Below, in pieces: positions 3,106 to 10,313 of a stretch of 64,000 bases of DNA. The translations under genes and the position numbers were made by a program. How positions within the stretch are numbered: the first letter of the stretch is position 1; each line of letters begins with the position of its first letter. This stretch comes from a bacterium (GTDB taxonomy: Bacteria; RBG-13-66-14): contig DATKYS010000132.1 in assembly GCA_035528375.1 (NCBI GenBank), positions 731 to 64,730 on the forward strand, written 5' to 3'. The notes beneath the pieces were generated by a model. That model was not told the origin of the DNA. It was given only the letters and a program-made list of their open reading frames with translations, and made no database searches.

Positions 3106-5223
3106 TTACTCCGGGCGGACCAGGTGCGGGGTGACGAATATCAACAGCTCGCGCACCTCGTCGGAATCCGACGTGCTCTTGAACAACAGGCCCAGTACCG
3201 GGATGCTGGATAACAGCGGCACCCCCTGCTCAATCGATTCGGTCTTGCGCCGCAGGAGGCCGCCGATGACGCCGGTCTCGCCGTTCTGCAGCAACAGTGT
3301 GGTGCTGGCCTCGGTGGTGTCCACCTGGAACTCGAGCCCCGGCGCCGGGGTGCGGGACATCTCCGAAATCTCCGGCCGGATGTCCAGGGTTATCTCGTTG
3401 ACCGAGTTCACGTGGGGGGTGACCGAGAGCTTGATGCCCACGTCGTAGAGCTCGACGTAGGTGTTGCCGTTCTCGTCGAGTAGGTTGACGGGGATGCGGC
3501 TGCCGACGAGGATGCGGGCCTCCTGGTTGTCCAGGGTGGTGATGCGGGGGGCAGAGAGGATGTTGGTGTCGGTGTCGGCGGCGTTGGCCTGGAGGGTCGC
3601 CTGGAGTGTGGCGGCGTCGAGGGCCGTGCGGCCGGTGGCGGTGAGGGTGCCGGCGTTGGACGGGGTGTCTATGACCACCGAGTTGCCCCGGAGACCGAAC
3701 TCCCAGTCTATGCCCAGCTCGGTGAGGGTGGTGATGCGCACGTCGAAAATTTTCGCCTCGATCATCACCTGGGCGGTGCGGGCGTCGAGCTGCTCGACCA
3801 GTCGGCGGATGCGGTCGCGGCGCTCCAGGGTGTCGGTGACGATGAGGGAGTTGGTCCGCGGCTCGACCTGAATCTGGCCCCGGTCCGAAATCATGGACTC
3901 GAAGCTGGCCTTGAGGCTGGCCGCCGTGGCGTAGCGCAGGGTGATTATCTCGGTGCCCACGGGCGAGGCGGCCTCGGCCTCGGCCATCTTCACCAGCTCC
4001 TCGGGGGTGTTGACCCGGATGATGGAGCCCTCGACGCGGTAGGAGAGGCCGTGGGCGGCCAGAATCACGCGCAGCGCCTCGTCCCAGGGCACGTCGCGCA
4101 GGGCGACGGTGACCTTGCCGGTGACGTTGGGCCCGGCCACGATGTTCATCCCCGTCTCGAAGGCCAGCATCCGCAGGACGTTGCCGATGTCGGCGTCCTT
4201 CAGGTCCATGGATATGCGCTTGCCCGAGGGGATGGTGCCTCCCCCGCTCGAGCCGCCGTAGCCCGTCTCGGCGGTGTAGGTCTCGGTGGTGTGGTAGGAG
4301 GTGGAGCCGACGCCCGACTCGGCGACCTCGGCGGTGACGTAGGTCTCCACGCGCTCCAGGTCCACGCTGGAGGTGTAGCCGTAGCTCAGGCCGGCGAAGG
4401 GATCGGTCTCCTCGGTGATGACGTCCAGGTAGAGGGCGTTGCCCCGGCGGGTGATGAGGTAGGGGTAGTCGCCGGTGGTCTGGGTGACGACGCGGACGAT
4501 GCGCTGGGGGGTGGTGGAGTACTGTGTGGCGCTGACCTTGACCAATCCGCCCCGGTCCAGGTAGAGGGTCGGCTGGTCGAGGTCCACCCGGGCGCCGATC
4601 AGGTCCAGCACGAAGGTCCGCGGCGATACGGTCTTAGAGAAATCGAACTTCAGCGGCGCGTCGGCGGTAATCTCTATCCGGGTCTTGCCGATGAGCTCGC
4701 GCACCTCGATGTCGCCGACCGCGGCTATCTCCGCCGTAATCCGCTCCTCGGGCCGTCCCCCGGGCGGGGCGGGGAAGCGGACCTCGATGGTGTTGCCCTC
4801 CTTCGTCAGGTAGTAGGGTTCGAACCGGGTCAGATCAATGACCACGCGGACTATCTTGGAGGGTATCTCCGAGTACTGGCTGGAGCGGATGCGCTGTATG
4901 TTATGGCCGGTCTCGACCTTGACCAGGGGGTCGCACTGGTGGACCGAGTTCTTGATGTCCACGATGACCCGGGGCGGGTCCTCCAGGGAGAAGACGTCGT
5001 AAACCAGGGAGGCGTCGCCGGTGATGGTGACTATCTCGTCGCCGCCGGCGTCGGTGGAGAACTCGACGGAGGATACGCGGGGCGCCTGGGCGAGGGCGAT
5101 CGTCGCCGACAGGAAAACGATGAGCAATAACGGGGGTCTGACTCTCACGGCCACTTCCCGTTCGGGGCGGGTATTCTTCCCCTGAAGTATAGCAGAAATC
5201 GAGGGTGATGCAAGGGTGTGCAA
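3106..5223 (-). CDS. pilQ: Type IV pilus / type II secretion secretin (PilQ/GspD family)
   Basis: Signal peptide, N-terminal AMIN-like repeats, C-terminal secretin motifs (GETGVIGGL...VPLLSSIPVLGLLF...ELLIFVTPHLV). Confidence 0.8.
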   Translation of the reverse strand: MHTLASPSISAILQGKNTRPEREVAVRVRPPLLLIVFLSATIALAQAPRVSSVEFSTDAGGDEIVTITGDASLVYDVFSLEDPPRVIVDIKNSVHQCDPLVKVETGHNIQRIRSSQYSEIPSKIVRVVIDLTRFEPYYLTKEGNTIEVRFPAPPGGRPEERITAEIAAVGDIEVRELIGKTRIEITADAPLKFDFSKTVSPRTFVLDLIGARVDLDQPTLYLDRGGLVKVSATQYSTTPQRIVRVVTQTTGDYPYLITRRGNALYLDVITEETDPFAGLSYGYTSSVDLERVETYVTAEVAESGVGSTSYHTTETYTAETGYGGSSGGGTIPSGKRISMDLKDADIGNVLRMLAFETGMNIVAGPNVTGKVTVALRDVPWDEALRVILAAHGLSYRVEGSIIRVNTPEELVKMAEAEAASPVGTEIITLRYATAASLKASFESMISDRGQIQVEPRTNSLIVTDTLERRDRIRRLVEQLDARTAQVMIEAKIFDVRITTLTELGIDWEFGLRGNSVVIDTPSNAGTLTATGRTALDAATLQATLQANAADTDTNILSAPRITTLDNQEARILVGSRIPVNLLDENGNTYVELYDVGIKLSVTPHVNSVNEITLDIRPEISEMSRTPAPGLEFQVDTTEASTTLLLQNGETGVIGGLLRRKTESIEQGVPLLSSIPVLGLLFKSTSDSDEVRELLIFVTPHLVRPE

Positions 5224-5290
5224 CCCCTTCTGACTGACCGCCCCCCGCCGGACGGCGCTTCGATCATACGGACGGGGCGCGTTTTACCGG

Positions 5291-5788
5291 TCACCAGCCC
5301 TCGACGATGCGGTCCACGACACGCTGGGCCAGGAGGTTGACCGACTCGGTGTAGGCCTCCGCCTCGGTCCCGCTCCCCGCGCCGGTCTCGACGTCGTAGT
5401 ACGTCACGCGCTCGGAGAGGGAGGTGTCCCGCCAGAGGTCGCGTTTGGCGTCCAGGTCCCGGAAGACCACCTCGAGCTCCACGGTGAGCTCGCGTTTTTT
5501 CACCGCCTCCTCCACGTCGTAGGCCACGGCGCGGGTGACGTAGCTGGTGATGGTGACCAGGAGGAGGGAGTCGGCGCGCGCCTCGGGGGCCACGGTCAGG
5601 GGCGAGTTGACCAGGAGTTCCTCGATGATGGCGGCGGTGAGCTCCTGCTCGATGCCGTACTCGAATGTGGCGTTGGCGACGGTGGGCACCGCCACCGACT
5701 CGATTCCCGGCGGCAGGTTGGGGCTGAAGGTGTAGCGGCAGCCCGCGGTAAGGACCAGCGCCACGAGTGGAGCGACGATTCTCCTCAC
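5291..5788 (-). CDS. Lipoprotein, LptE-like (LPS-assembly lipoprotein) candidate
   Basis: Lipobox LTAGC, then a Y/F pattern. Length and overall layout resemble LptE. Weak call. Confidence 0.4.
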   Translation of the reverse strand: MRRIVAPLVALVLTAGCRYTFSPNLPPGIESVAVPTVANATFEYGIEQELTAAIIEELLVNSPLTVAPEARADSLLLVTITSYVTRAVAYDVEEAVKKRELTVELEVVFRDLDAKRDLWRDTSLSERVTYYDVETGAGSGTEAEAYTESVNLLAQRVVDRIVEGW

Positions 5789-6450
5789 GGCCGTTCCTCT
5801 TTCAGGAAGTCCACGAGCCGCTTCAGCGCTCGGCCGCGGTGGCTGACGGCGTGCTTGGCCTCCGGGGAATGTTGGGCGAAGGTAAGCTCCGACCCCTCGG
5901 GGATGAAGAGGGGGTCGTAACCGAATCCCCCGTCGCCTACCGGCCGGTCCCCGATCCGCCCCTCCACCTTCCCCACGGCGGCCAGGAGAACCTCCCCCGC
6001 CGGAGTGACCAGGGCGACGGCGCAGGTGTAGCGGGCGATGCGGTCGGAGAATCCCTCGAGCTCGGCGAGGAGCCGCACGTTGTTGAGCGAATCCGCGGGG
6101 ACGTCCGTCGCCGTCAGCGGACGGCCTCCGGGGTATTCTGGATAAATGCCGCGAAGCATTTCGGCGTCGAGGGCGTGGTACCGGGCGGAGAAGATACCCG
6201 GCGCGCCGCCCAGGGTGTCCACGGACAGCCCCGAGTCCTCGCCCAGCCCCAGGTCGCCGAACCTCTCGGCTACGGCGGTGGCCTTGAGGACGGCGTTTTC
6301 GGTGAAGCTCCGGCCGGTCTCGGCAATCTCGAGGGTGCCCGCGGGGTCGAGCTCCAGGAGGGAGACCGGGTGGTACCCCTCGGTTCCGAGGATGTCCCGG
6401 AGCTCGCGGAGCTTGTCGGGGTTTCGGCTGGCGATCAGGATGCGGCTCAT
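5785..6450 (-). CDS. rdgB: Non-canonical purine NTP pyrophosphatase (dITP/XTP pyrophosphatase, Ham1/RdgB)
   Basis: MSRILIASRNPDKLRELRDIL...TFAQHSPEAKHAVSHRGRALKRLVDFL, the full-length Ham1 family pattern. Confidence 0.85.
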   Translation of the reverse strand: MSRILIASRNPDKLRELRDILGTEGYHPVSLLELDPAGTLEIAETGRSFTENAVLKATAVAERFGDLGLGEDSGLSVDTLGGAPGIFSARYHALDAEMLRGIYPEYPGGRPLTATDVPADSLNNVRLLAELEGFSDRIARYTCAVALVTPAGEVLLAAVGKVEGRIGDRPVGDGGFGYDPLFIPEGSELTFAQHSPEAKHAVSHRGRALKRLVDFLKEERP

Positions 6451-6495
6451 GGTTTAAAATAATTCATGCGTTTATTAATTAAATTAATTTTGCAC

Positions 6496-6524
6496 TTGAC
6501 ATTATAAATGTTTCTCGCTACACT
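6496..6524 (+). promoter_or_regulatory. Sigma70-type promoter, TTGACA-17-TACACT
   Basis: Consensus -35 hexamer, 17-nt spacer, good -10, about 100 nt upstream of the DUF2089 start. Implies the real start is the Met at 6628, not the track start at 6508. Confidence 0.55.
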
Positions 6525-6627
6525 TTCTCTCGGACCGGGTGAACGCGCAAAGAAGAAGTCGCCAACCTGGACATTTTACCAGACGCACGGGATCCGTACT
6601 GAGCCAAAATCGTCCGAGGAGCCGAAA

Positions 6628-7029
6628 ATGCCCTATCCCATACCCGGCCACTGCCCCGTCTGCGGCAAGGAGTTCAACGTCACCGAGCTCCTCTGCAAGA
6701 GCTGCCGCGCCACTCTGCGCGGTGACTTCACCCTCTGCGATTTCTGCCGCCTGAGCTCTGAACAGCGCGCCTTCCTGAAGCACTTCGTCGCCGTCGGCGG
6801 GAGCATCAAGGACATGGAGGGCATCCTGGGCATCAGCTACCCCACGGTGAAAAAGCGGCTGGCCGAGCTGGCCGACATCCTGGGCGTGGGGCACCGATTC
6901 CCCCGACCGGACCCCAAACGGGCGGCCGCCGAGAGGCTCAGGTTGCTGGAGATGCTGGCGGCCGGCGAGATGACGGCCGACGAGGTTTCCAAACGGTTCG
7001 AGGAGATGAACGAAGAGGAGGAACGATGA
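6628..7029 (+). CDS. DUF2089-like protein: N-terminal zinc ribbon + sigma-70 region-4-like HTH + C-terminal SHOCT-like helix
   Basis: MPYPIPGHCPVCG...CKSCR...CDFC zinc ribbon. SEQRAFLKHFVAVGGSIKDMEGILGISYPTVKKRL is an HTH. C-terminal ERLRLLEMLAAGEMTADEVSKRF is SHOCT-like. RBS GGAG 8 nt upstream. Confidence 0.65.
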   Translation: MPYPIPGHCPVCGKEFNVTELLCKSCRATLRGDFTLCDFCRLSSEQRAFLKHFVAVGGSIKDMEGILGISYPTVKKRLAELADILGVGHRFPRPDPKRAAAERLRLLEMLAAGEMTADEVSKRFEEMNEEEER

Positions 7030-7406
7030 CCGCCGAGGAGAGAAAGAAAATACTGGAGATGGTGGCCGACGGGACCGTCACCACCGACGAGGCCGAACGG
7101 CTGTTCACCGCCGCCGGACCCGACGACGACACACCGAGGATCGTCCGGGCCGACAACAAGTTCCTGATCATCAAGGTTCATCAGGGCGACAAGACCAACG
7201 TAAACGTGCGCGTACCGCTCGCCCTGGCCCGGCTGGCCAAGATGTTCATCCCCAAGGACATCGAGGTCAACGGCAAGCCGCTCAACGTTGACATGGACCA
7301 GATCATCAACCTCGTGGAGTCCGAGGTCGAGGGCAACATCGTCGAGGTGCACCAGGAGGACGACGACTCCGGCGAGATTACCGACGTGGAAATTTATCTC
7401 GAATAA
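7026..7406 (+). CDS. SHOCT-like N-terminal helix + conserved C-terminal domain protein, paralog 1
   Basis: 126 aa. Start overlaps the DUF2089 stop (ATGA). About 60 % identical to the next gene over the FLIIKVHQGDKTNV...NIVEVHQ...TDVxIYLE region. Confidence 0.65.
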   Translation: MTAEERKKILEMVADGTVTTDEAERLFTAAGPDDDTPRIVRADNKFLIIKVHQGDKTNVNVRVPLALARLAKMFIPKDIEVNGKPLNVDMDQIINLVESEVEGNIVEVHQEDDDSGEITDVEIYLE

Positions 7407-7426
7407 CGGCACTACGGGAGGCAGAG

Positions 7427-7789
7427 ATGAAGTCCGAGGAGAGGCGCGAGGTGCTGGATCGGGTGGTAGGTGGCGAGCTCTCCGCCGAGGAGGCGGACCG
7501 GCTCCTCGTCGGGGACGTCCCCGCCGTGGCCGGGCGGAACAGGTTCCTCATGATCAAGGTCCGCCAGGGGGACAAAACCAACGTGGACGTCCGCCTGCCC
7601 ATCGGTCTGGCGAAAATTGCGAAGTTGTTCGTGCCCAAGCGGATAGACGTGAACGGCGAATCGGTGGACTTCGATTTCGACGAAATCATCCGGGTCGTCG
7701 AGAGCGAGGTGACGGGGAACATCGTCGAGGTGCACCAGGTGGACGACGAGACCGGCGAGGTCACCGACGTGAGCATCTATCTCGAATAG
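7427..7789 (+). CDS. SHOCT-like N-terminal helix + conserved C-terminal domain protein, paralog 2 (tandem duplicate)
   Basis: 120 aa. FLMIKVRQGDKTNVDVRLP...GNIVEVHQVDDETGEVTDVSIYLE. Same architecture as 7026..7406. Confidence 0.65.
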   Translation: MKSEERREVLDRVVGGELSAEEADRLLVGDVPAVAGRNRFLMIKVRQGDKTNVDVRLPIGLAKIAKLFVPKRIDVNGESVDFDFDEIIRVVESEVTGNIVEVHQVDDETGEVTDVSIYLE

Positions 7790-7825
7790 AGCCTTGTGTC
7801 CATGTGTCCGCGACGACGAAATTAG

Positions 7826-7849
7826 GCAAGGGGCTTAAGCCCCTTGTCT
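7826..7849. repeat. Palindromic repeat GGCAAGGGGCTTAAGCCCCTTG (also a plausible bidirectional terminator)
   Basis: Near-identical copy at 56372..56397 and a degenerate copy at 21055..21080. Perfect 8-bp stem around a TTAA loop. Confidence 0.6.
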
Positions 7850-7913
7850 TGTTGGGTTCCGACCCGCCTTTTTCCGCCCCCGCCTCGGGAGCCGCTCGAT
7901 GGACGGCGCCCGG

Positions 7914-8717
7914 CTAATGGGCGCCGTTGATGAGTAGCGCACGCTCCACCGGCTGGTTCGTGTCCACGTTGAACTGGTTGAAGATGTCCTTCGAGCCGAA
8001 CTCCTCGGGGCCGATTCCCAGCTTGAGCGTGTAGGTTCCCGTCTCCTGCCTGAGCTTGATCACCGTGGCGAAGAAGCCGTCGGGGTCGGGGGTTATCGGG
8101 GCGAATTCCTGGGCGGAACCGCGGACGAAACAGCCGGGCCAGCCGTCGGCCAGGAGCCAGCCGGTCAGCTTCACGTTGTAGAAGGCGCCGTCGGAGACGA
8201 TGGATATCGGGTTCAGCTCGATGCGCTTCGAGGTGAACACCTCCGTGACGTGGATTCCCTCCAGGTCCCCCCGGGAGCTGTGCACGATTCCGATGCCCAC
8301 CCGGTTGAAATCTGGGTCGAGGATGTTCGCCCGGTGGGGCGGCGAATCCATCAGGCCCTCGAAGGTGGACCGGGTGAGGGTCGCCCAGTCGTAGGGCCCG
8401 CTGCGGTAATCGGCCCCGATGTTCTCCCCGACCCAGACCTCCGTCAGCCCCGCGTTGGCCACGCGTTGGGGAACCGTCTCGCTCCCCGAAACCGGCGACT
8501 CGTGGCTGAAGTAGCCCAGGGTAACCATCTCCCAGGAGTGCTGTCGGGCGACCTGGGTGAAGGCGGGGTCCATGGCGAGGGGGGCCACGCCATCCTCGGC
8601 GCGGGCGGCGTTGACGAGCTCCAGCATGAGCTCCTCCGCCTCCGCCTCGCCGGTGAAGGCGGCGGCACCGACCGCCGGGAGCAGGCAGAATATGATTGCG
8701 AAGAGCCCTTTGGGCAC
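7914..8717 (-). CDS. Secreted CAP/SCP/PR-1 domain protein
   Basis: Signal peptide, then LVNAARAEDGVAPLAMDP...HSWEM...GENIG...HRANILDPDFNRVGIG, the CAP-domain signature. Confidence 0.75.
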   Translation of the reverse strand: MPKGLFAIIFCLLPAVGAAAFTGEAEAEELMLELVNAARAEDGVAPLAMDPAFTQVARQHSWEMVTLGYFSHESPVSGSETVPQRVANAGLTEVWVGENIGADYRSGPYDWATLTRSTFEGLMDSPPHRANILDPDFNRVGIGIVHSSRGDLEGIHVTEVFTSKRIELNPISIVSDGAFYNVKLTGWLLADGWPGCFVRGSAQEFAPITPDPDGFFATVIKLRQETGTYTLKLGIGPEEFGSKDIFNQFNVDTNQPVERALLINGAH

Positions 8718-8840
8718 GGTTCAGCCGCCTTTCCGCCACCAATTATAGCGGCAAGAGCCCGCAGTTATCCAGGTTTTGCCGCTTGGCCGGCGGGTTCCCC
8801 CTGTGTTACCGTAGCCCCGTTCGAACCACCGGGAGGGTTT

Positions 8841-9302
8841 ATGAGAAGGGTTCCTCTAGTTTTGATTACCCTCGTTTTCCTGGCCTCCTGCGGCGGCAAG
8901 CCGCCCCGGGAGGAGTACGTTCAGGACCCGCGGTCCACCGCTGCCGAGACCCCCGACGTCACCGAGCCCCTGGGGTTCCCCGCCGGCGATCCGACCGCGG
9001 CGGTGGAAGCCTTTCTCCTGGCCGCCAAGCTCGGTCAGGACGAGAAGCTCGGGGAGATGCTCTACCCGCCCGGGGTGGGTGAGGAGGGCGCCGGGCTGGG
9101 TGAGAAGCTTAAAAACCTCGATGGCGCGGGAATCACCAATTGGGGCGAGGTCACCGTGGGCGCGGAGCGCCCGGGCGAGGGGGAGGTGCTGGAGAGCCGG
9201 GAGGTTACGGCGCGGGTACACCGGGGTGAGTCGTCGCGGGTCTGGCGCTTCACCGTGGTGCGCACGAACGCGGGCTGGTACATCCGGGATTTTGAGGACT
9301 GA
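8841..9302 (+). CDS. Hypothetical lipoprotein
   Basis: MRRVPLVLITLVFLASCGG lipobox, 153 aa, in frame within the longer track ORF 8250..9302. Confidence 0.5.
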   Translation: MRRVPLVLITLVFLASCGGKPPREEYVQDPRSTAAETPDVTEPLGFPAGDPTAAVEAFLLAAKLGQDEKLGEMLYPPGVGEEGAGLGEKLKNLDGAGITNWGEVTVGAERPGEGEVLESREVTARVHRGESSRVWRFTVVRTNAGWYIRDFED

Positions 9303-9305
9303 GCC

Positions 9306-10313
9306 TCACGCCCCGGTGAGCTCCTCCAGGAATGCGGGCCAGCCGCCCCGCCCCTTCGCGGCCAGGGCGTGGACGAGCTCGAGGAAGGCGGTCTCGATGG
9401 CCGGCAGTCCGCGTTTCACCGCCGCATCGAAGCCCAGCAGCGCCGACTGCGCCTCCCACAGCTCGCGGGGCGTGTGCCGTCCGGCCGCCCGCCGGTAACC
9501 GTCGAGGAAGTAGGGAGTCACCCCCGCCAGACGCGCCAGCTCGCCTTTTTCGAGGTCGCGCCGCGAGTGGAAACGGATGAGCTGTAAAATCCGGTAGTGA
9601 CGCGCCAGGAGGCCGACGAGGCGGGGCATCTCGGCCGGGTCGGCCAGGGATCGGGCGGCCATGAGGCAGGCCTCGGCCTCCCGACCCGCGGTGACCAGGT
9701 CGCACAGACGGAAGGGATCGAAACCCGGCGCCGTGCCGACCGCCTGGGCCACCTGCTCCGCGGTGAGCGTGCCCCCCTTCTCCACGAGGAGGGACAGGCT
9801 CTCGCAGGCGTTCTCCAGGGTGTCCAGGTTCCCGGCGACGGCCAGGATAAGCTCCAGCGCCGGGGGGGCGGCCTTGACACCGCGCTCGTCGAGGAAGTGG
9901 AGGGCGGCCTTGCGCAGGTCGGCCTCTTTCAACGGCTCGCACTCGACGGTGGAGTCCTGCAATTCCTTCGACAGGCGGGTGCGCCGGTCCAGCCGTTCCA
10001 GCACCACCGCCAGGTGGTTGGGCGGTCTGACATTAGGGAGAAGTTTGAGTACCGTCTCCACCAGCTCCGCCGGGAGGGTGTCCCCCTCGATGACGGCGAG
10101 GCGTGCGGCGCCGAAAAGGGGCAGCGTCTGAACGGCGTCGGCGAGCTCGCCGGGCGCCACGTCGGTGCCGTACCGCTCCAGGTCGGCTCCCGCCCCCAGG
10201 GTGTCGCGCAGCGCTGCCAGGGCCCTCCTCCGCAGCCCCGCCTCCGGACCGGCGATGAGGGCCACGGCGGGCGGCTCTTTTCCCAAAACACTGCGCCAAC
10301 GTGTAAGGTTCAC
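9306..10313 (-). CDS. holA: DNA polymerase III delta subunit
   Basis: 335 aa with HolA-like N-terminal (LIAGPEAGLRRRAL...), middle and C-terminal helical domains. Confidence 0.7.
   Translation of the reverse strand: MNLTRWRSVLGKEPPAVALIAGPEAGLRRRALAALRDTLGAGADLERYGTDVAPGELADAVQTLPLFGAARLAVIEGDTLPAELVETVLKLLPNVRPPNHLAVVLERLDRRTRLSKELQDSTVECEPLKEADLRKAALHFLDERGVKAAPPALELILAVAGNLDTLENACESLSLLVEKGGTLTAEQVAQAVGTAPGFDPFRLCDLVTAGREAEACLMAARSLADPAEMPRLVGLLARHYRILQLIRFHSRRDLEKGELARLAGVTPYFLDGYRRAAGRHTPRELWEAQSALLGFDAAVKRGLPAIETAFLELVHALAAKGRGGWPAFLEELTGA

What the first reader, a model, noticed from the sequence alone, without database searches (positions are those of the whole stretch)
6496..7856. 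DUF2089 zinc-ribbon/HTH gene followed by two tandem paralogous SHOCT-like small proteins
The three genes run on one strand behind a consensus sigma70 promoter (TTGACA-17-TACACT). The first two share translational coupling (ATGA overlap). The third follows after a 20-nt gap. A palindromic element at 7826..7849 follows the third. Gene 1 combines a Cys4 zinc ribbon, a sigma-70 region-4-like HTH and a C-terminal SHOCT-like helix (ERLRLLEMLAAGEMTADEVSKRF). Genes 2 and 3 are about 60 % identical to each other. Each starts with the same SHOCT-like helix (ERKKILEMVADGTVTTDEAERLF and ERREVLDRVVGGELSAEEADRLL). Each continues into a conserved ~80-aa domain (FLxIKVxQGDKTNVxVRxP...GNIVEVHQ...GExTDVxIYLE) that I cannot assign to a named family. 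SHOCT-type helices on both regulator and effectors suggest helix-mediated hetero-oligomerisation. A tandem-duplicated effector is unusual. The module may be an uncharacterised envelope-stress or regulatory cassette.
Basis: partly seen in the sequence, partly recalled or inferred. Interest (0 to 1): 0.65.

Follow-up and report, generated by a model that had tools for sequence, protein, structure and literature searches.

The report
DUF2089 regulator with two SHOCT-like partners
This is a real three-gene operon for a zinc-ribbon DNA-binding regulator and two duplicated small acidic partners that share its two-helix "SHOCT-like" tag: a local variant of a widespread, untested cassette related to Lia/Psp membrane-stress signalling, whose partner domain belongs to no named family.

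Summary
Three co-directional genes sit behind a conserved sigma-70 promoter and before a hairpin terminator: g1 6628-7029, g2 7026-7406, g3 7427-7789. g1 is a DUF2089 protein (zinc ribbon, HTH, SHOCT-like tail). g2 and g3 are 55% identical paralogues ("X") with a SHOCT-like (YvlB/LiaX N-terminal type) head, a disordered linker and an ~85-aa alpha/beta domain.

That domain matches nothing in Pfam, NCBIfam, PDB sequences or two fold libraries, and is not Toastrack. It defines a large unnamed family (1040 50%-identity clusters) across many phyla. In about 95% of X loci with enough upstream DNA, a DUF2089 gene lies directly upstream.

Related loci add other partners with the same tag: Toastrack, LiaI-LiaF-TM, hexapeptide beta-helix, and an unnamed 2-TM protein ("T"). 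T occurs only where the regulator has lost its zinc-ribbon cysteines. The duplicated partner occurs only in some Coatesbacteria, and both copies are under purifying selection.

[quoted passage not shown] 2024.

Most likely this is a self-contained regulatory cassette in which the partners control the regulator through the shared tag. That mechanism is inferred, not shown. Moderate interest; new variant of a known, uncharacterised kind.

The parts
6496..6524 (+). Sigma-70-type promoter, TTGACA-17-TACACT
   Evidence: It is the only promoter-like hit in 6300-8000. The TTGACA and GCTAnnCT hexamers are conserved at the same position in L001/L096, L093, L003 and L094.
6572..6599 (+). Conserved 5'-UTR motif CATTTTACCAGACGCACGGGATCCGTAC. 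It could be an operator or an RNA element. Its function is unknown.
   Evidence: It is conserved in the two-partner Coatesbacterial loci L001/L096 and L093, and present twice in L095. It has no Rfam match.
6628..7029 (+). g1 ('D'), 133 aa: DUF2089 protein with a Cys4 zinc ribbon (plus a third CxxC), an HTH and a SHOCT-like two-helix tail
   Evidence: Pfam PF22747 E 1e-11, PF09862 E 3e-17, PF22746 E 5e-4. The public record names it 'DUF2089 domain-containing protein' HUT99480.1. dN/dS against orthologues is 0.08-0.17.
7026..7406 (+). g2 ('X1'), 126 aa, pI 4.4: SHOCT-like (YvlB/LiaX N-terminal type) head, disordered linker, and an unnamed ~85-aa alpha/beta domain ending in ...YLE
   Evidence: PF22746 E 4.6e-8. 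The start overlaps the g1 stop as ATGA. It is 100% identical to VM054_10450. The AF2 model has pLDDT 72.7. dN/dS is 0.21-0.28.
7427..7789 (+). g3 ('X2'), 120 aa, pI 4.6: paralogue of g2 with the same architecture
   Evidence: BLASTP against g2 gives 55% identity, E 2e-48. PF22746 E 2.6e-5. Orthologues sit at the same position in L001, L093, L095 and L096. dN/dS is 0.14-0.25.
7820..7875 (.). Terminator region between convergent genes: an 11-bp perfect-stem hairpin (7824-7849), a second hairpin (7854-7865) and a T5 run
   Evidence: Consensus scan. RNA fold gives -29.7 kcal/mol, z -2.2. The CAP-domain gene on the - strand ends at 7914.

Best explanation
This is a self-contained three-gene operon from a Candidatus Coatesbacteria-like genome. 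It encodes a DUF2089 transcription factor (D: zinc ribbon, HTH, SHOCT-like two-helix tail). It also encodes two paralogous, acidic, cytoplasmic partner proteins (X1 and X2: the same two-helix module as a head, a flexible linker, and an unnamed ~85-aa alpha/beta domain).

It is the minimal, all-soluble, duplicated-partner version of a widespread cassette. In that cassette a DUF2089 regulator is encoded with one to three proteins that all carry the same tag. The partners seen are X, YvlB/LiaX-like Toastrack proteins, LiaI-LiaF-type membrane anchors, beta-helix proteins, and an unnamed 2-TM protein T.

**Most likely mechanism.** D binds DNA through its HTH and controls at least its own promoter. 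X1 and X2 assemble with D through the shared two-helix modules and set how much D is free or active, in the manner of sequestration or partner switching. The C-terminal domain of X is the part that receives the signal or docks onto another component. By analogy with the Lia/Psp-linked parts in sister loci, the signal is probably membrane or envelope related.

**Shown:** gene structure, domains, family size, near-obligate D-X linkage, purifying selection, promoter conservation.

**Inferred:** DNA binding, autoregulation, tag-tag association, the direction of control, and the nature of the signal.
For: - **Domains:**
- **X family size:** the X domain defines a family of 1040 clusters at 50% identity (542 at E<=1e-10). 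Nearly all members are 125-160 aa with the domain at the C-terminus.
- **Distribution:** Acidobacteriota/Aminicenantes, Actinomycetota, Chloroflexota, Latescibacterota, Zixibacteria, Ignavibacteria, Planctomycetota, Bacillota and others.
- **X-centred survey of 91 loci plus the window:** the arrangements D-T-X (42 loci), D-X (35) and D-X-X (3) account for 80 of the 92. In seven more (counted as XD, DDTX, TDX, DXT, DDX, TX) the long ORF calls overlap so the letters sort differently, or, in L021 (TX), the contig starts at T. The remaining five are X alone: four have X at a contig edge, and only L085 has ample upstream DNA but no D.
- **D-centred survey:** 54 of 63 loci have a SHOCT-like-tagged ORF downstream, and 37 have X. 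The others have SHOCT-like+Toastrack.
- **The tag is the common denominator:** ZnR-HTH-S, S-X, S-Toastrack and Toastrack-S, S-hexapeptide beta-helix, and LiaI-LiaF-TM-S. The last is already membrane-anchored, so there the tag is not needed for anchoring.
- **Near-identical tag consensus:** EERKxILExLAxGxITVxEAxxLL for D tails and X heads. hhalign of X against the Toastrack partners gives 98.5% probability over the head only.
- **Operon features:** translational coupling and a conserved promoter.
- **Selection:** all three genes are under purifying selection.
- **Literature:** a YvlB protein with the same head interacts with PspA, LiaH and Yvl membrane proteins in two-hybrid assays (PMC9239133). 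[quoted passage not shown] Ravi et al. propose DUF2089/Toastrack contexts as Lia-like signalling (PMC11237479).
Against: - No experiment exists for any DUF2089 protein or any X protein. DNA binding and autoregulation are assumed from the fold class.
- The one published oligomerisation test of a canonical SHOCT domain was negative.
- D tails are no more similar to the X head of their own locus than to heads from other loci (42.8% vs 42.1% identity, permutation p 0.20). There is therefore no sign of a specific pairing code.
- The X-domain model is only moderately confident (pLDDT 72.7, pTM 0.43) and gives no functional clue.
- This window has no membrane partner: no T-like ORF was found. The envelope link therefore rests on other lineages.
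- Flanking genes differ between phyla, so no regulon can be read from context.
Confidence: 0.5

Rival explanations
1. D is simply the dedicated transcription factor, and X1/X2 are the regulated output. In this reading X proteins are small stress-protective or adaptor proteins that act elsewhere, for example on a membrane-proximal Psp/Lia-type complex. The shared two-helix module does not join D to X. It targets every component to the same third party: a conserved protein, or the membrane as Ravi et al. proposed.
For: - There is no locus-specific co-variation between D tails and X heads, and both have nearly the same consensus. That fits a common conserved target.
- Ravi et al. predict that SHOCT-like modules localise disparate domains to the inner leaflet.
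- YvlB binds PspA and LiaH, which are encoded elsewhere.
- The canonical SHOCT domain did not self-associate.
Against: - The modules are net acidic (mean charge -2.5 for D tails, -1.7 for X heads). That argues against direct binding to an anionic membrane (inference).
- The module also occurs on LiaI-LiaF-TM proteins that are already in the membrane.
- A targeting tag on the DNA-binding regulator itself is hard to explain unless localisation controls its activity. That collapses into the best explanation.
Confidence: 0.3
2. X and the 2-TM protein T share a split four-stranded beta-sheet domain. X acts as a soluble mimic or docking partner of T-like membrane proteins. The Coatesbacterial X1/X2 pair replaces the T-X pair by forming a heterodimer through that sheet. 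The regulator is then controlled by the state of the sheet-sheet complex, not by the helices.
For: - hhalign of T against the X domain gives two collinear matches: the C-terminal hairpin (E 7e-6, probability 84%) and the N-terminal hairpin with the invariant Pro (E 9e-4, probability 23%).
- T sits between D and X in 42 loci.
- T occurs only with cysteine-less D: 43 loci against 0.
- Duplicated X occurs only where T is absent.
Against: - The matches are short and of modest probability.
- The X model is of moderate confidence.
- 24 loci have neither T nor an intact zinc ribbon, and most T-less loci carry a single X.
- No multimer modelling was possible.
Confidence: 0.15
3. The cassette is a toxin-antitoxin, anti-phage defence or other mobile-element module, with an HTH antitoxin and small toxins.
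For: The layout resembles one superficially: a small HTH gene followed by small genes, translationally coupled.
Against: - No PADLOC match for any of the three proteins or for T.
- The cassette sits at the same chromosomal position, beside rdgB-lptE, in all Coatesbacterial loci seen.
- No integrase, repeat or tRNA lies at its borders.
- All three genes are under purifying selection. The X-centred loci sampled come from many phyla, and each carries one cassette.
Confidence: 0.03

Closest known systems
DUF2089-centred contexts in Ravi et al. [quoted passage not shown]
   Same: The regulator has the same architecture (ZnR, HTH, SHOCT-like tail) and the same gene order, with a SHOCT-like-headed partner downstream. 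It belongs to the same wider family of operons with Toastrack and LiaI-LiaF-TM partners.
   Different: The paper leaves 'X' undefined and centres on Toastrack, sigma and anti-sigma contexts. Here there is no Toastrack, sigma factor or membrane protein. The partner is a defined, unnamed ~85-aa domain, and it is tandemly duplicated. I could not check whether the B. megaterium 'X' is the same domain.
LiaX / YvlB (SHOCT-like head + Toastrack DUF4097), the daptomycin-sensing modulator of LiaFSR in enterococci
   Same: The N-terminal two-helix module is the same (PF22746). UniProt names some X proteins 'YvlB/LiaX N-terminal domain-containing protein'. LiaX/YvlB-like proteins are alternative or additional partners of DUF2089 in sister loci.
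   Different: The C-terminal domain is unrelated to Toastrack (hhalign probability 1%; no PF13349 hit). The NCBIfam LiaX model scores 14.9 bits against a cut-off of 350. X is about 125 aa, not about 500, and no LiaFSR genes are nearby.
Canonical SHOCT domain (Eberhardt et al. 2013, PMC3581485)
   Same: It is a short amphipathic two-helix module that occurs at protein termini, fused to many unrelated domains.
   Different: The canonical SHOCT Pfam model gives no hit. Only the divergent 'SHOCT-like' PF22746 model matches. The canonical domain has no proven function.
Sequestration-type control of transcription factors (anti-sigma/sigma; PspA-PspF; LiaF-LiaS)
   Same: This is only a functional analogy: a regulator co-encoded with small partner proteins that are expected to hold or release it.
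   Different: There is no sequence or domain relationship. D is not a sigma factor or an enhancer-binding protein, and no kinase is present.

Membership tests
DUF2089 family (Pfam PF22747 zinc ribbon + PF09862 HTH) | Both Pfam models matched above their gathering scores, in N-to-C order | tested here: met
   g1 scores 45.1 bits on PF22747 (cut-off 27.6) over residues 9-40, and 62.3 bits on PF09862 (cut-off 33.4) over residues 42-86.
DUF2089 family | Four zinc-ribbon cysteines (two CxxC) | tested here: met
   CPVC at residues 9-12 and CKSC at 23-26, plus a third CDFC at 37-40.
SHOCT-like_DUF2089-C / YvlB-LiaX N-terminal module (PF22746) | Match to PF22746 at or above its gathering score of 27 bits | tested here: inconclusive
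   g2 scores 32.8 bits (met). g3 scores 24.1 bits and the g1 tail 20.0 bits, both below cut-off. Family-level support is strong: 144 of 150 X members match, D tails and X heads share a consensus, and hhalign against the Toastrack partners gives E 2.8e-15 over the head.
Canonical SHOCT (Eberhardt et al. 2013) | Match to the canonical SHOCT Pfam model | tested here: not met
   No such hit at E<=1 for g1, g2 or g3. Only weak DUF1707 SHOCT-like hits appear in distant family members.
Toastrack / DUF4097 / LiaF-like C-terminal domain | Match of the C-terminal domain to PF13349 or PF09922, or profile similarity to Toastrack proteins | tested here: not met
   No hit in g2 or g3, or in 150 family members. 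hhalign of the X-domain profile against 17 operon-linked Toastrack proteins gives probability 1.1%.
LiaX (NCBIfam NF038025) | Full-length match above the 350-bit cut-off | tested here: not met
   14.9 bits, residues 4-46 only.
DUF2089 -> SHOCT-like+X dyad (Ravi et al. 2024, Table S4) | A DUF2089 gene directly followed on the same strand by a gene for a SHOCT-like head plus an unassigned domain | tested here: met
   Window gene order. The order recurs in related loci. Table entry.
DUF2089 -> SHOCT-like+X dyad (Ravi et al. 2024, Table S4) | The 'X' of the published example is the same domain as here | not testable with these tools
   The Bacillus megaterium neighbour sequence could not be fetched. 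Bacilli and Clostridia loci with this X domain do exist (L080, L088, L090, L091).
Known anti-phage defence / TA systems (PADLOC-DB) | Match to any PADLOC model | tested here: not met
   No hits at E<=0.01.
Transcription factor (functional class) | Sequence-specific DNA binding and control of a promoter | not testable with these tools
   Only the HTH fold class, a conserved promoter and a conserved 5'-UTR motif are available.

The most novel reading that the evidence does not exclude
X and the unnamed 2-TM protein T carry a previously undescribed split beta-hairpin domain. In both, an N-terminal hairpin with an invariant Pro and a C-terminal hairpin flank an insert. The insert is a helical segment in X and a transmembrane hairpin in T. 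Together with DUF2089 they would form a widespread, kinase-free pathway that holds a transcription factor at the membrane and releases it on membrane stress. The regulator's zinc ribbon and T would be alternative solutions to the same step, and the Coatesbacterial X1/X2 pair would be a soluble substitute for T-X.
Probability: 0.15. Interest if true: 0.6.

Novelty: new variant of a known kind. Interest (0 to 1): 0.4.

Why it matters
DUF2089 regulators and their SHOCT-like-tagged partners are spread over many bacterial phyla, yet none has been tested experimentally. The cassettes are tied by gene context to the Lia/Psp membrane-stress network, which underlies daptomycin and bacteriocin resistance in Gram-positive pathogens.

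This work gives the undefined 'X' of the literature a concrete identity:
- It is an ~85-95-aa acidic domain that ends in a near-invariant Glu.
- It forms a family of more than 1000 clusters at 50% identity.
- It is almost always encoded directly after DUF2089.

The work also adds two testable regularities:
- Every partner in these operons carries the same two-helix tag.
- The 2-TM protein T is found only with regulators that lack the zinc-ribbon cysteines.

If the tag proves to be a general assembly module, that would settle what SHOCT-like domains do, a question open since 2013. The three-gene Coatesbacterial version is the smallest all-soluble form, so it is convenient for in vitro reconstitution. 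It does not by itself overturn anything known.

Tried and rejected
**Searches for a match to the X domain**
- Pfam and NCBIfam on g1-g3 and on distant members found nothing for the X domain. Weak GatB_Yqey hits (46 of 150 members, best E 8e-6, below cut-off) fall on helical segments, and I judge them non-specific.
- PDB sequence searches with single sequences and with a profile found nothing. The only weak hit was the two-helix head against archaeal Rpo13 (E 0.033).
- The first AF2 model, from 23 sequences, was poor (pLDDT 60). The second, from 150 sequences, was better (72.7).
- Foldseek against PDB and BFVD gave no match below E 0.01 and no TM-score above 0.33 normalised to the query length.

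**Locus retrieval**
- The search for related loci failed with the broad alignments A3 and A2. It worked with a narrower one.

**Ideas tested and rejected**
- X is a Toastrack fragment: rejected by hhalign, with a positive control on the head.
- TA or defence module: no PADLOC hit.
- RNA element: no Rfam hit.
- A T-like membrane partner hidden elsewhere in the window: none found.
- Locus-specific co-variation of D tail and X head: none.
- A conserved operator palindrome upstream of the promoter: only AT-rich sequence is conserved there.

**Other**
- The long antisense ORFs over the operon (for example 6837-7412 on the - strand, 191 aa) are taken to be by-products of the high G+C content. All the homology is on the + strand.
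Full report
**1. What is in the sequence.** Three co-directional ORFs lie between divergent and convergent neighbours. g1 is best read as 6628-7029 (133 aa). The listed ATG at 6508 lies inside the promoter, all orthologues begin MPYP..., and a GAGGAG sits 6 nt before 6628. g2 is 7026-7406 (126 aa), and its ATG overlaps the g1 TGA as ATGA. g3 is 7427-7789 (120 aa), after a 20-nt gap.

The promoter TTGACA-17-TACACT at 6496-6524 is the only sigma-70-like site in 6300-8000; shuffled sequence gives 0.5. Both hexamers are conserved in position in related loci.

Downstream there is an 11-bp perfect-stem hairpin at 7824-7849, a second small hairpin and a T5 run. This element lies between the operon and a convergent CAP-domain gene, so it can serve as a terminator for both strands.

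All three genes are under purifying selection against orthologues. dN/dS is 0.08-0.17 for g1, 0.21-0.28 for g2 and 0.14-0.25 for g3. The only corrections are 55% rather than about 60% identity between g2 and g3, and that the SHOCT-like matches of the g1 tail and the g3 head fall just below the Pfam cut-off.

**2. The proteins.** g1 matches Zn_ribbon_DUF2089 and DUF2089-HTH above their cut-offs, and has a C-terminal SHOCT-like two-helix segment. g2 and g3 begin with the same module (PF22746). UniProt also calls this module the 'YvlB/LiaX N-terminal domain'.

After the head comes a linker that AF2 leaves disordered. An ~85-aa domain follows, with predicted order beta-hairpin, helix, short strands, helix, beta-hairpin (pLDDT 72.7, pTM 0.43). 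Both proteins are acidic (pI 4.4 and 4.6) and have no signal peptide or TM segment (sequence).

The genome is Coatesbacteria-like. g2 is 100% identical to VM054_10450 and 93% identical to a protein of Candidatus Coatesbacteria RBG_13_66_14.

**3. The C-terminal domain is an unnamed but large family.** It has no match in any of these:
- Pfam, NCBIfam or PDB sequence searches, for g2, g3 or 150 relatives.
- Foldseek against the PDB or BFVD.
- Toastrack. hhalign of the domain profile against 17 operon-linked Toastrack proteins gives 1% probability. The same comparison with the head included gives 98.5%, which shows the test works.

An exhaustive profile search found 1040 clusters at 50% identity (542 at E<=1e-10). 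Almost all are 125-160 aa with the domain at the very C-terminus. The consensus of the broader family is YLRVxV...VNVRVPLxLxRAG...IP...G...DL...LEELI..L..L.VDVD....VRVFCE. P64 and P76 (g2 numbering) are invariant. The last residue is Glu in 171 of 187 sequences. The Coatesbacterial proteins are a shortened variant. Public records call these proteins 'hypothetical' or name them after the head only.

**4. Gene neighbourhoods.** I ran two surveys.

*X-centred survey.* I took 80 loci from species-representative genomes and 11 from assemblies, and scanned them with my own HMMs.
- The arrangements D-T-X (42 loci), D-X (35) and D-X-X (3) account for 80 of the 92 loci, counting the window.
- Seven more (counted as XD, DDTX, TDX, DXT, DDX, TX) are cases where the long ORF calls overlap so the letters sort differently, or, in L021 (TX), where the contig starts at T.
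- The remaining five are X alone. Four have X at a contig edge; only L085 has ample upstream DNA but no D.
- Phyla include Acidobacteriota/Aminicenantes, Actinomycetota (a cultured Nonomuraea), Chloroflexota, Latescibacterota, Zixibacteria, Ignavibacteria, Planctomycetota, Spirochaetota, Desulfobacterota and Bacillota (a cultured Anaerotruncus).

*D-centred survey.* This used 80 metagenome loci and is biased towards zinc-ribbon-type D.
- 63 loci had at least 700 nt downstream of D.
- 54 of these carry a SHOCT-like-tagged ORF downstream.
- 37 carry X.
- Most of the rest carry a 300-420-aa SHOCT-like+Toastrack protein.

So X almost always comes with D, and D almost always comes with some tagged partner.

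**5. Other partners, and two regularities.** Related loci insert further tagged proteins:
- SHOCT-like+Toastrack or Toastrack+SHOCT-like (L057-59, L064, L081-84, L089).
- Two SHOCT-like+hexapeptide beta-helix proteins (L077/78).
- LiaI-LiaF-type 2-TM proteins with a C-terminal SHOCT-like segment (L115, L143, L154).

About half of the X-centred loci also encode T, a 91-93-aa protein with two TM helices and no Pfam match, between D and X.

*First regularity.* T is found only with D proteins that lack the zinc-ribbon cysteines. There are 43 loci with T and no cysteines, and none with T and cysteines. 19 loci have cysteines and no T, and 24 have neither.

*Second regularity.* T and X may share their beta-hairpins. 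hhalign gives two collinear local matches: the C-terminal hairpin (E 7e-6, probability 84%) and the N-terminal hairpin with the conserved Pro (E 9e-4, probability 23%). I regard this as suggestive, not established.

**6. The Coatesbacterial version.** The cassette always sits beside rdgB (Ham1) and lptE.
- Two partners (D-X-X) occur in the window, L001/L002, L093, L095 and L096.
- One partner occurs in L003/L004, L092 and L094. Those loci instead have a 330-nt spacer or a conserved 48-58-aa ORF between D and X.
- In a rough NJ tree the g3-type copies branch outside the g2-type plus single-copy proteins. The duplication is therefore old within the group, or g3 evolves faster.
- No T-like or other tagged ORF is present elsewhere in the window.
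- A 28-nt 5'-UTR motif (6572-6599) is conserved in the two-partner loci and duplicated in L095.

**7. How it most likely works.** Every protein of these operons carries the same acidic two-helix module, including the DNA-binding one and the membrane-anchored ones. The simplest reading is that the module brings them together. On that reading, the partners set the activity or availability of the regulator.

Facts in favour:
- The consensus of D tails and X heads is nearly identical.
- The module occurs on proteins that are already membrane-embedded.
- Its net negative charge makes direct binding to anionic lipid unlikely (inference).
- YvlB is a protein-interaction hub in two-hybrid assays.

Facts against:
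- The negative oligomerisation test for a canonical SHOCT domain.
- The lack of locus-specific co-variation.

Both facts against fit a rival equally well, in which all components bind a common third party. The envelope or membrane-stress link is inferred only from the LiaI-LiaF-TM, Toastrack and T partners in other lineages. In this window the system is entirely soluble. I put 0.5 on 'regulatory cassette in which X1/X2 control D through the shared module', 0.3 on 'D regulates, X acts elsewhere, and the tag targets a common partner', 0.15 on the split-sheet X/T variant, and about 0.03 on a TA or defence module.

**8. Relation to what is known.** Ravi et al. 2024 split DUF2089 into ZnR, HTH and SHOCT-like parts. 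[quoted passage not shown] So the pairing is not new.

What I did not find in the held literature:
- a definition of X as one large family;
- its near-obligate linkage to DUF2089;
- the T family and its exclusivity with the zinc ribbon;
- the hexapeptide and LiaI-LiaF-TM-tagged partners within X operons;
- the lineage-specific duplication.

g1 is a member of DUF2089. g2 and g3 are members of the SHOCT-like-headed class, but not of Toastrack, LiaX or canonical SHOCT.

**9. Verdict.** This is a real, correctly described operon. It is a new variant (minimal, soluble, duplicated partner) of a documented but experimentally untouched cassette. Interest is moderate at 0.4. A specialist would not be surprised that it exists. 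The family is widespread, compact and tractable, and it bears on the unresolved function of SHOCT-like modules.

Noticed in passing
window 6572-6599: The 28-nt 5'-UTR motif CATTTTACCAGACGCACGGGATCCGTAC is conserved in the two-partner Coatesbacterial loci (L001/L096, L093) and present twice in L095. It could be an operator or a small RNA hairpin (ACGG-GAT-CCGT). It has no Rfam match.
   Followed up: partly
L008:2552-2833, L010:3093-3368 and 38 other loci: An unnamed 91-93-aa protein family ('T') with two TM helices flanked by short beta-hairpin-like segments is encoded between DUF2089 and X in about half of the X-centred loci. It has no Pfam match. It shows collinear weak profile similarity to the two hairpins of the X domain.
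   Followed up: partly
D proteins of loci L001-L091 (table): The zinc-ribbon cysteines of DUF2089 and the presence of T are mutually exclusive. There are 0 loci with both, 43 with T only, 19 with cysteines only and 24 with neither.
   Followed up: partly
L092:2650-2826 and L094:1532-1678: Single-partner Coatesbacterial loci carry a conserved 48-58-aa ORF between D and X (VTLTLRLPL... / LTVNININL..., then H[IV]WL..EEP....P[PL]GL). Its first strand resembles the VNVRVPL strand of X, so it may be a remnant or a mini-partner.
   Followed up: no
L003:3665-3829: The 330-nt spacer between D and X contains a second copy of the coding sequence for the end of D (AEEAIGKLN). This suggests a local partial duplication.
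   Followed up: no
L077:2776-3306 and 3358-3948 (also L078): Two tandem proteins with a SHOCT-like head fused to a hexapeptide left-handed beta-helix (Pfam Hexapep E 3e-21) lie between D-T and X in Dehalococcoidia.
   Followed up: partly
L115:2388-2693, L154:1325-1627, L143:4362-4712: About 100-aa proteins with a LiaI-LiaF-like TM region (PF18917) and a C-terminal SHOCT-like segment are encoded inside D-X operons. This ties X cassettes directly to Lia-type membrane parts.
   Followed up: partly
window 6736-6747 (g1 residues 37-40): A third CxxC (CDFC) follows the Cys4 zinc ribbon. It is conserved in Coatesbacteria and in some other loci (L086, L090, L091). Its role is unknown.
   Followed up: no
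X family C-termini, for example window 7395-7403 and 7778-7786: X proteins end in [FY][CLV]E, with Glu as the very last residue in 171 of 187 sequences. The Cys of the common FCE ending is replaced by Leu in Coatesbacteria.
   Followed up: no
profile of alignment A3, positions 6-51: The SHOCT-like head profile gives a weak hit (E 0.033) to the helical C-terminal part of archaeal RNA polymerase subunit Rpo13 (EIWDNLLNGKISVDEAKRLFE). It is probably convergent helical similarity.
   Followed up: no
window 3106-6450 (- strand) and 7914-10313: The flanking genes are an AMIN-domain secretin, LptE and a Ham1/RdgB pyrophosphatase on one side. On the other side are a CAP-domain protein, a small unassigned ORF and a DNA polymerase III delta subunit. 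The rdgB-lptE side is syntenic in all Coatesbacterial loci, and the other side varies.
   Followed up: partly
window 6502-7776 (- strand): Several long antisense ORFs (130, 191 and 132 aa) overlap the operon. All the homology found is on the + strand, and I take them to be by-products of the high G+C content.
   Followed up: no
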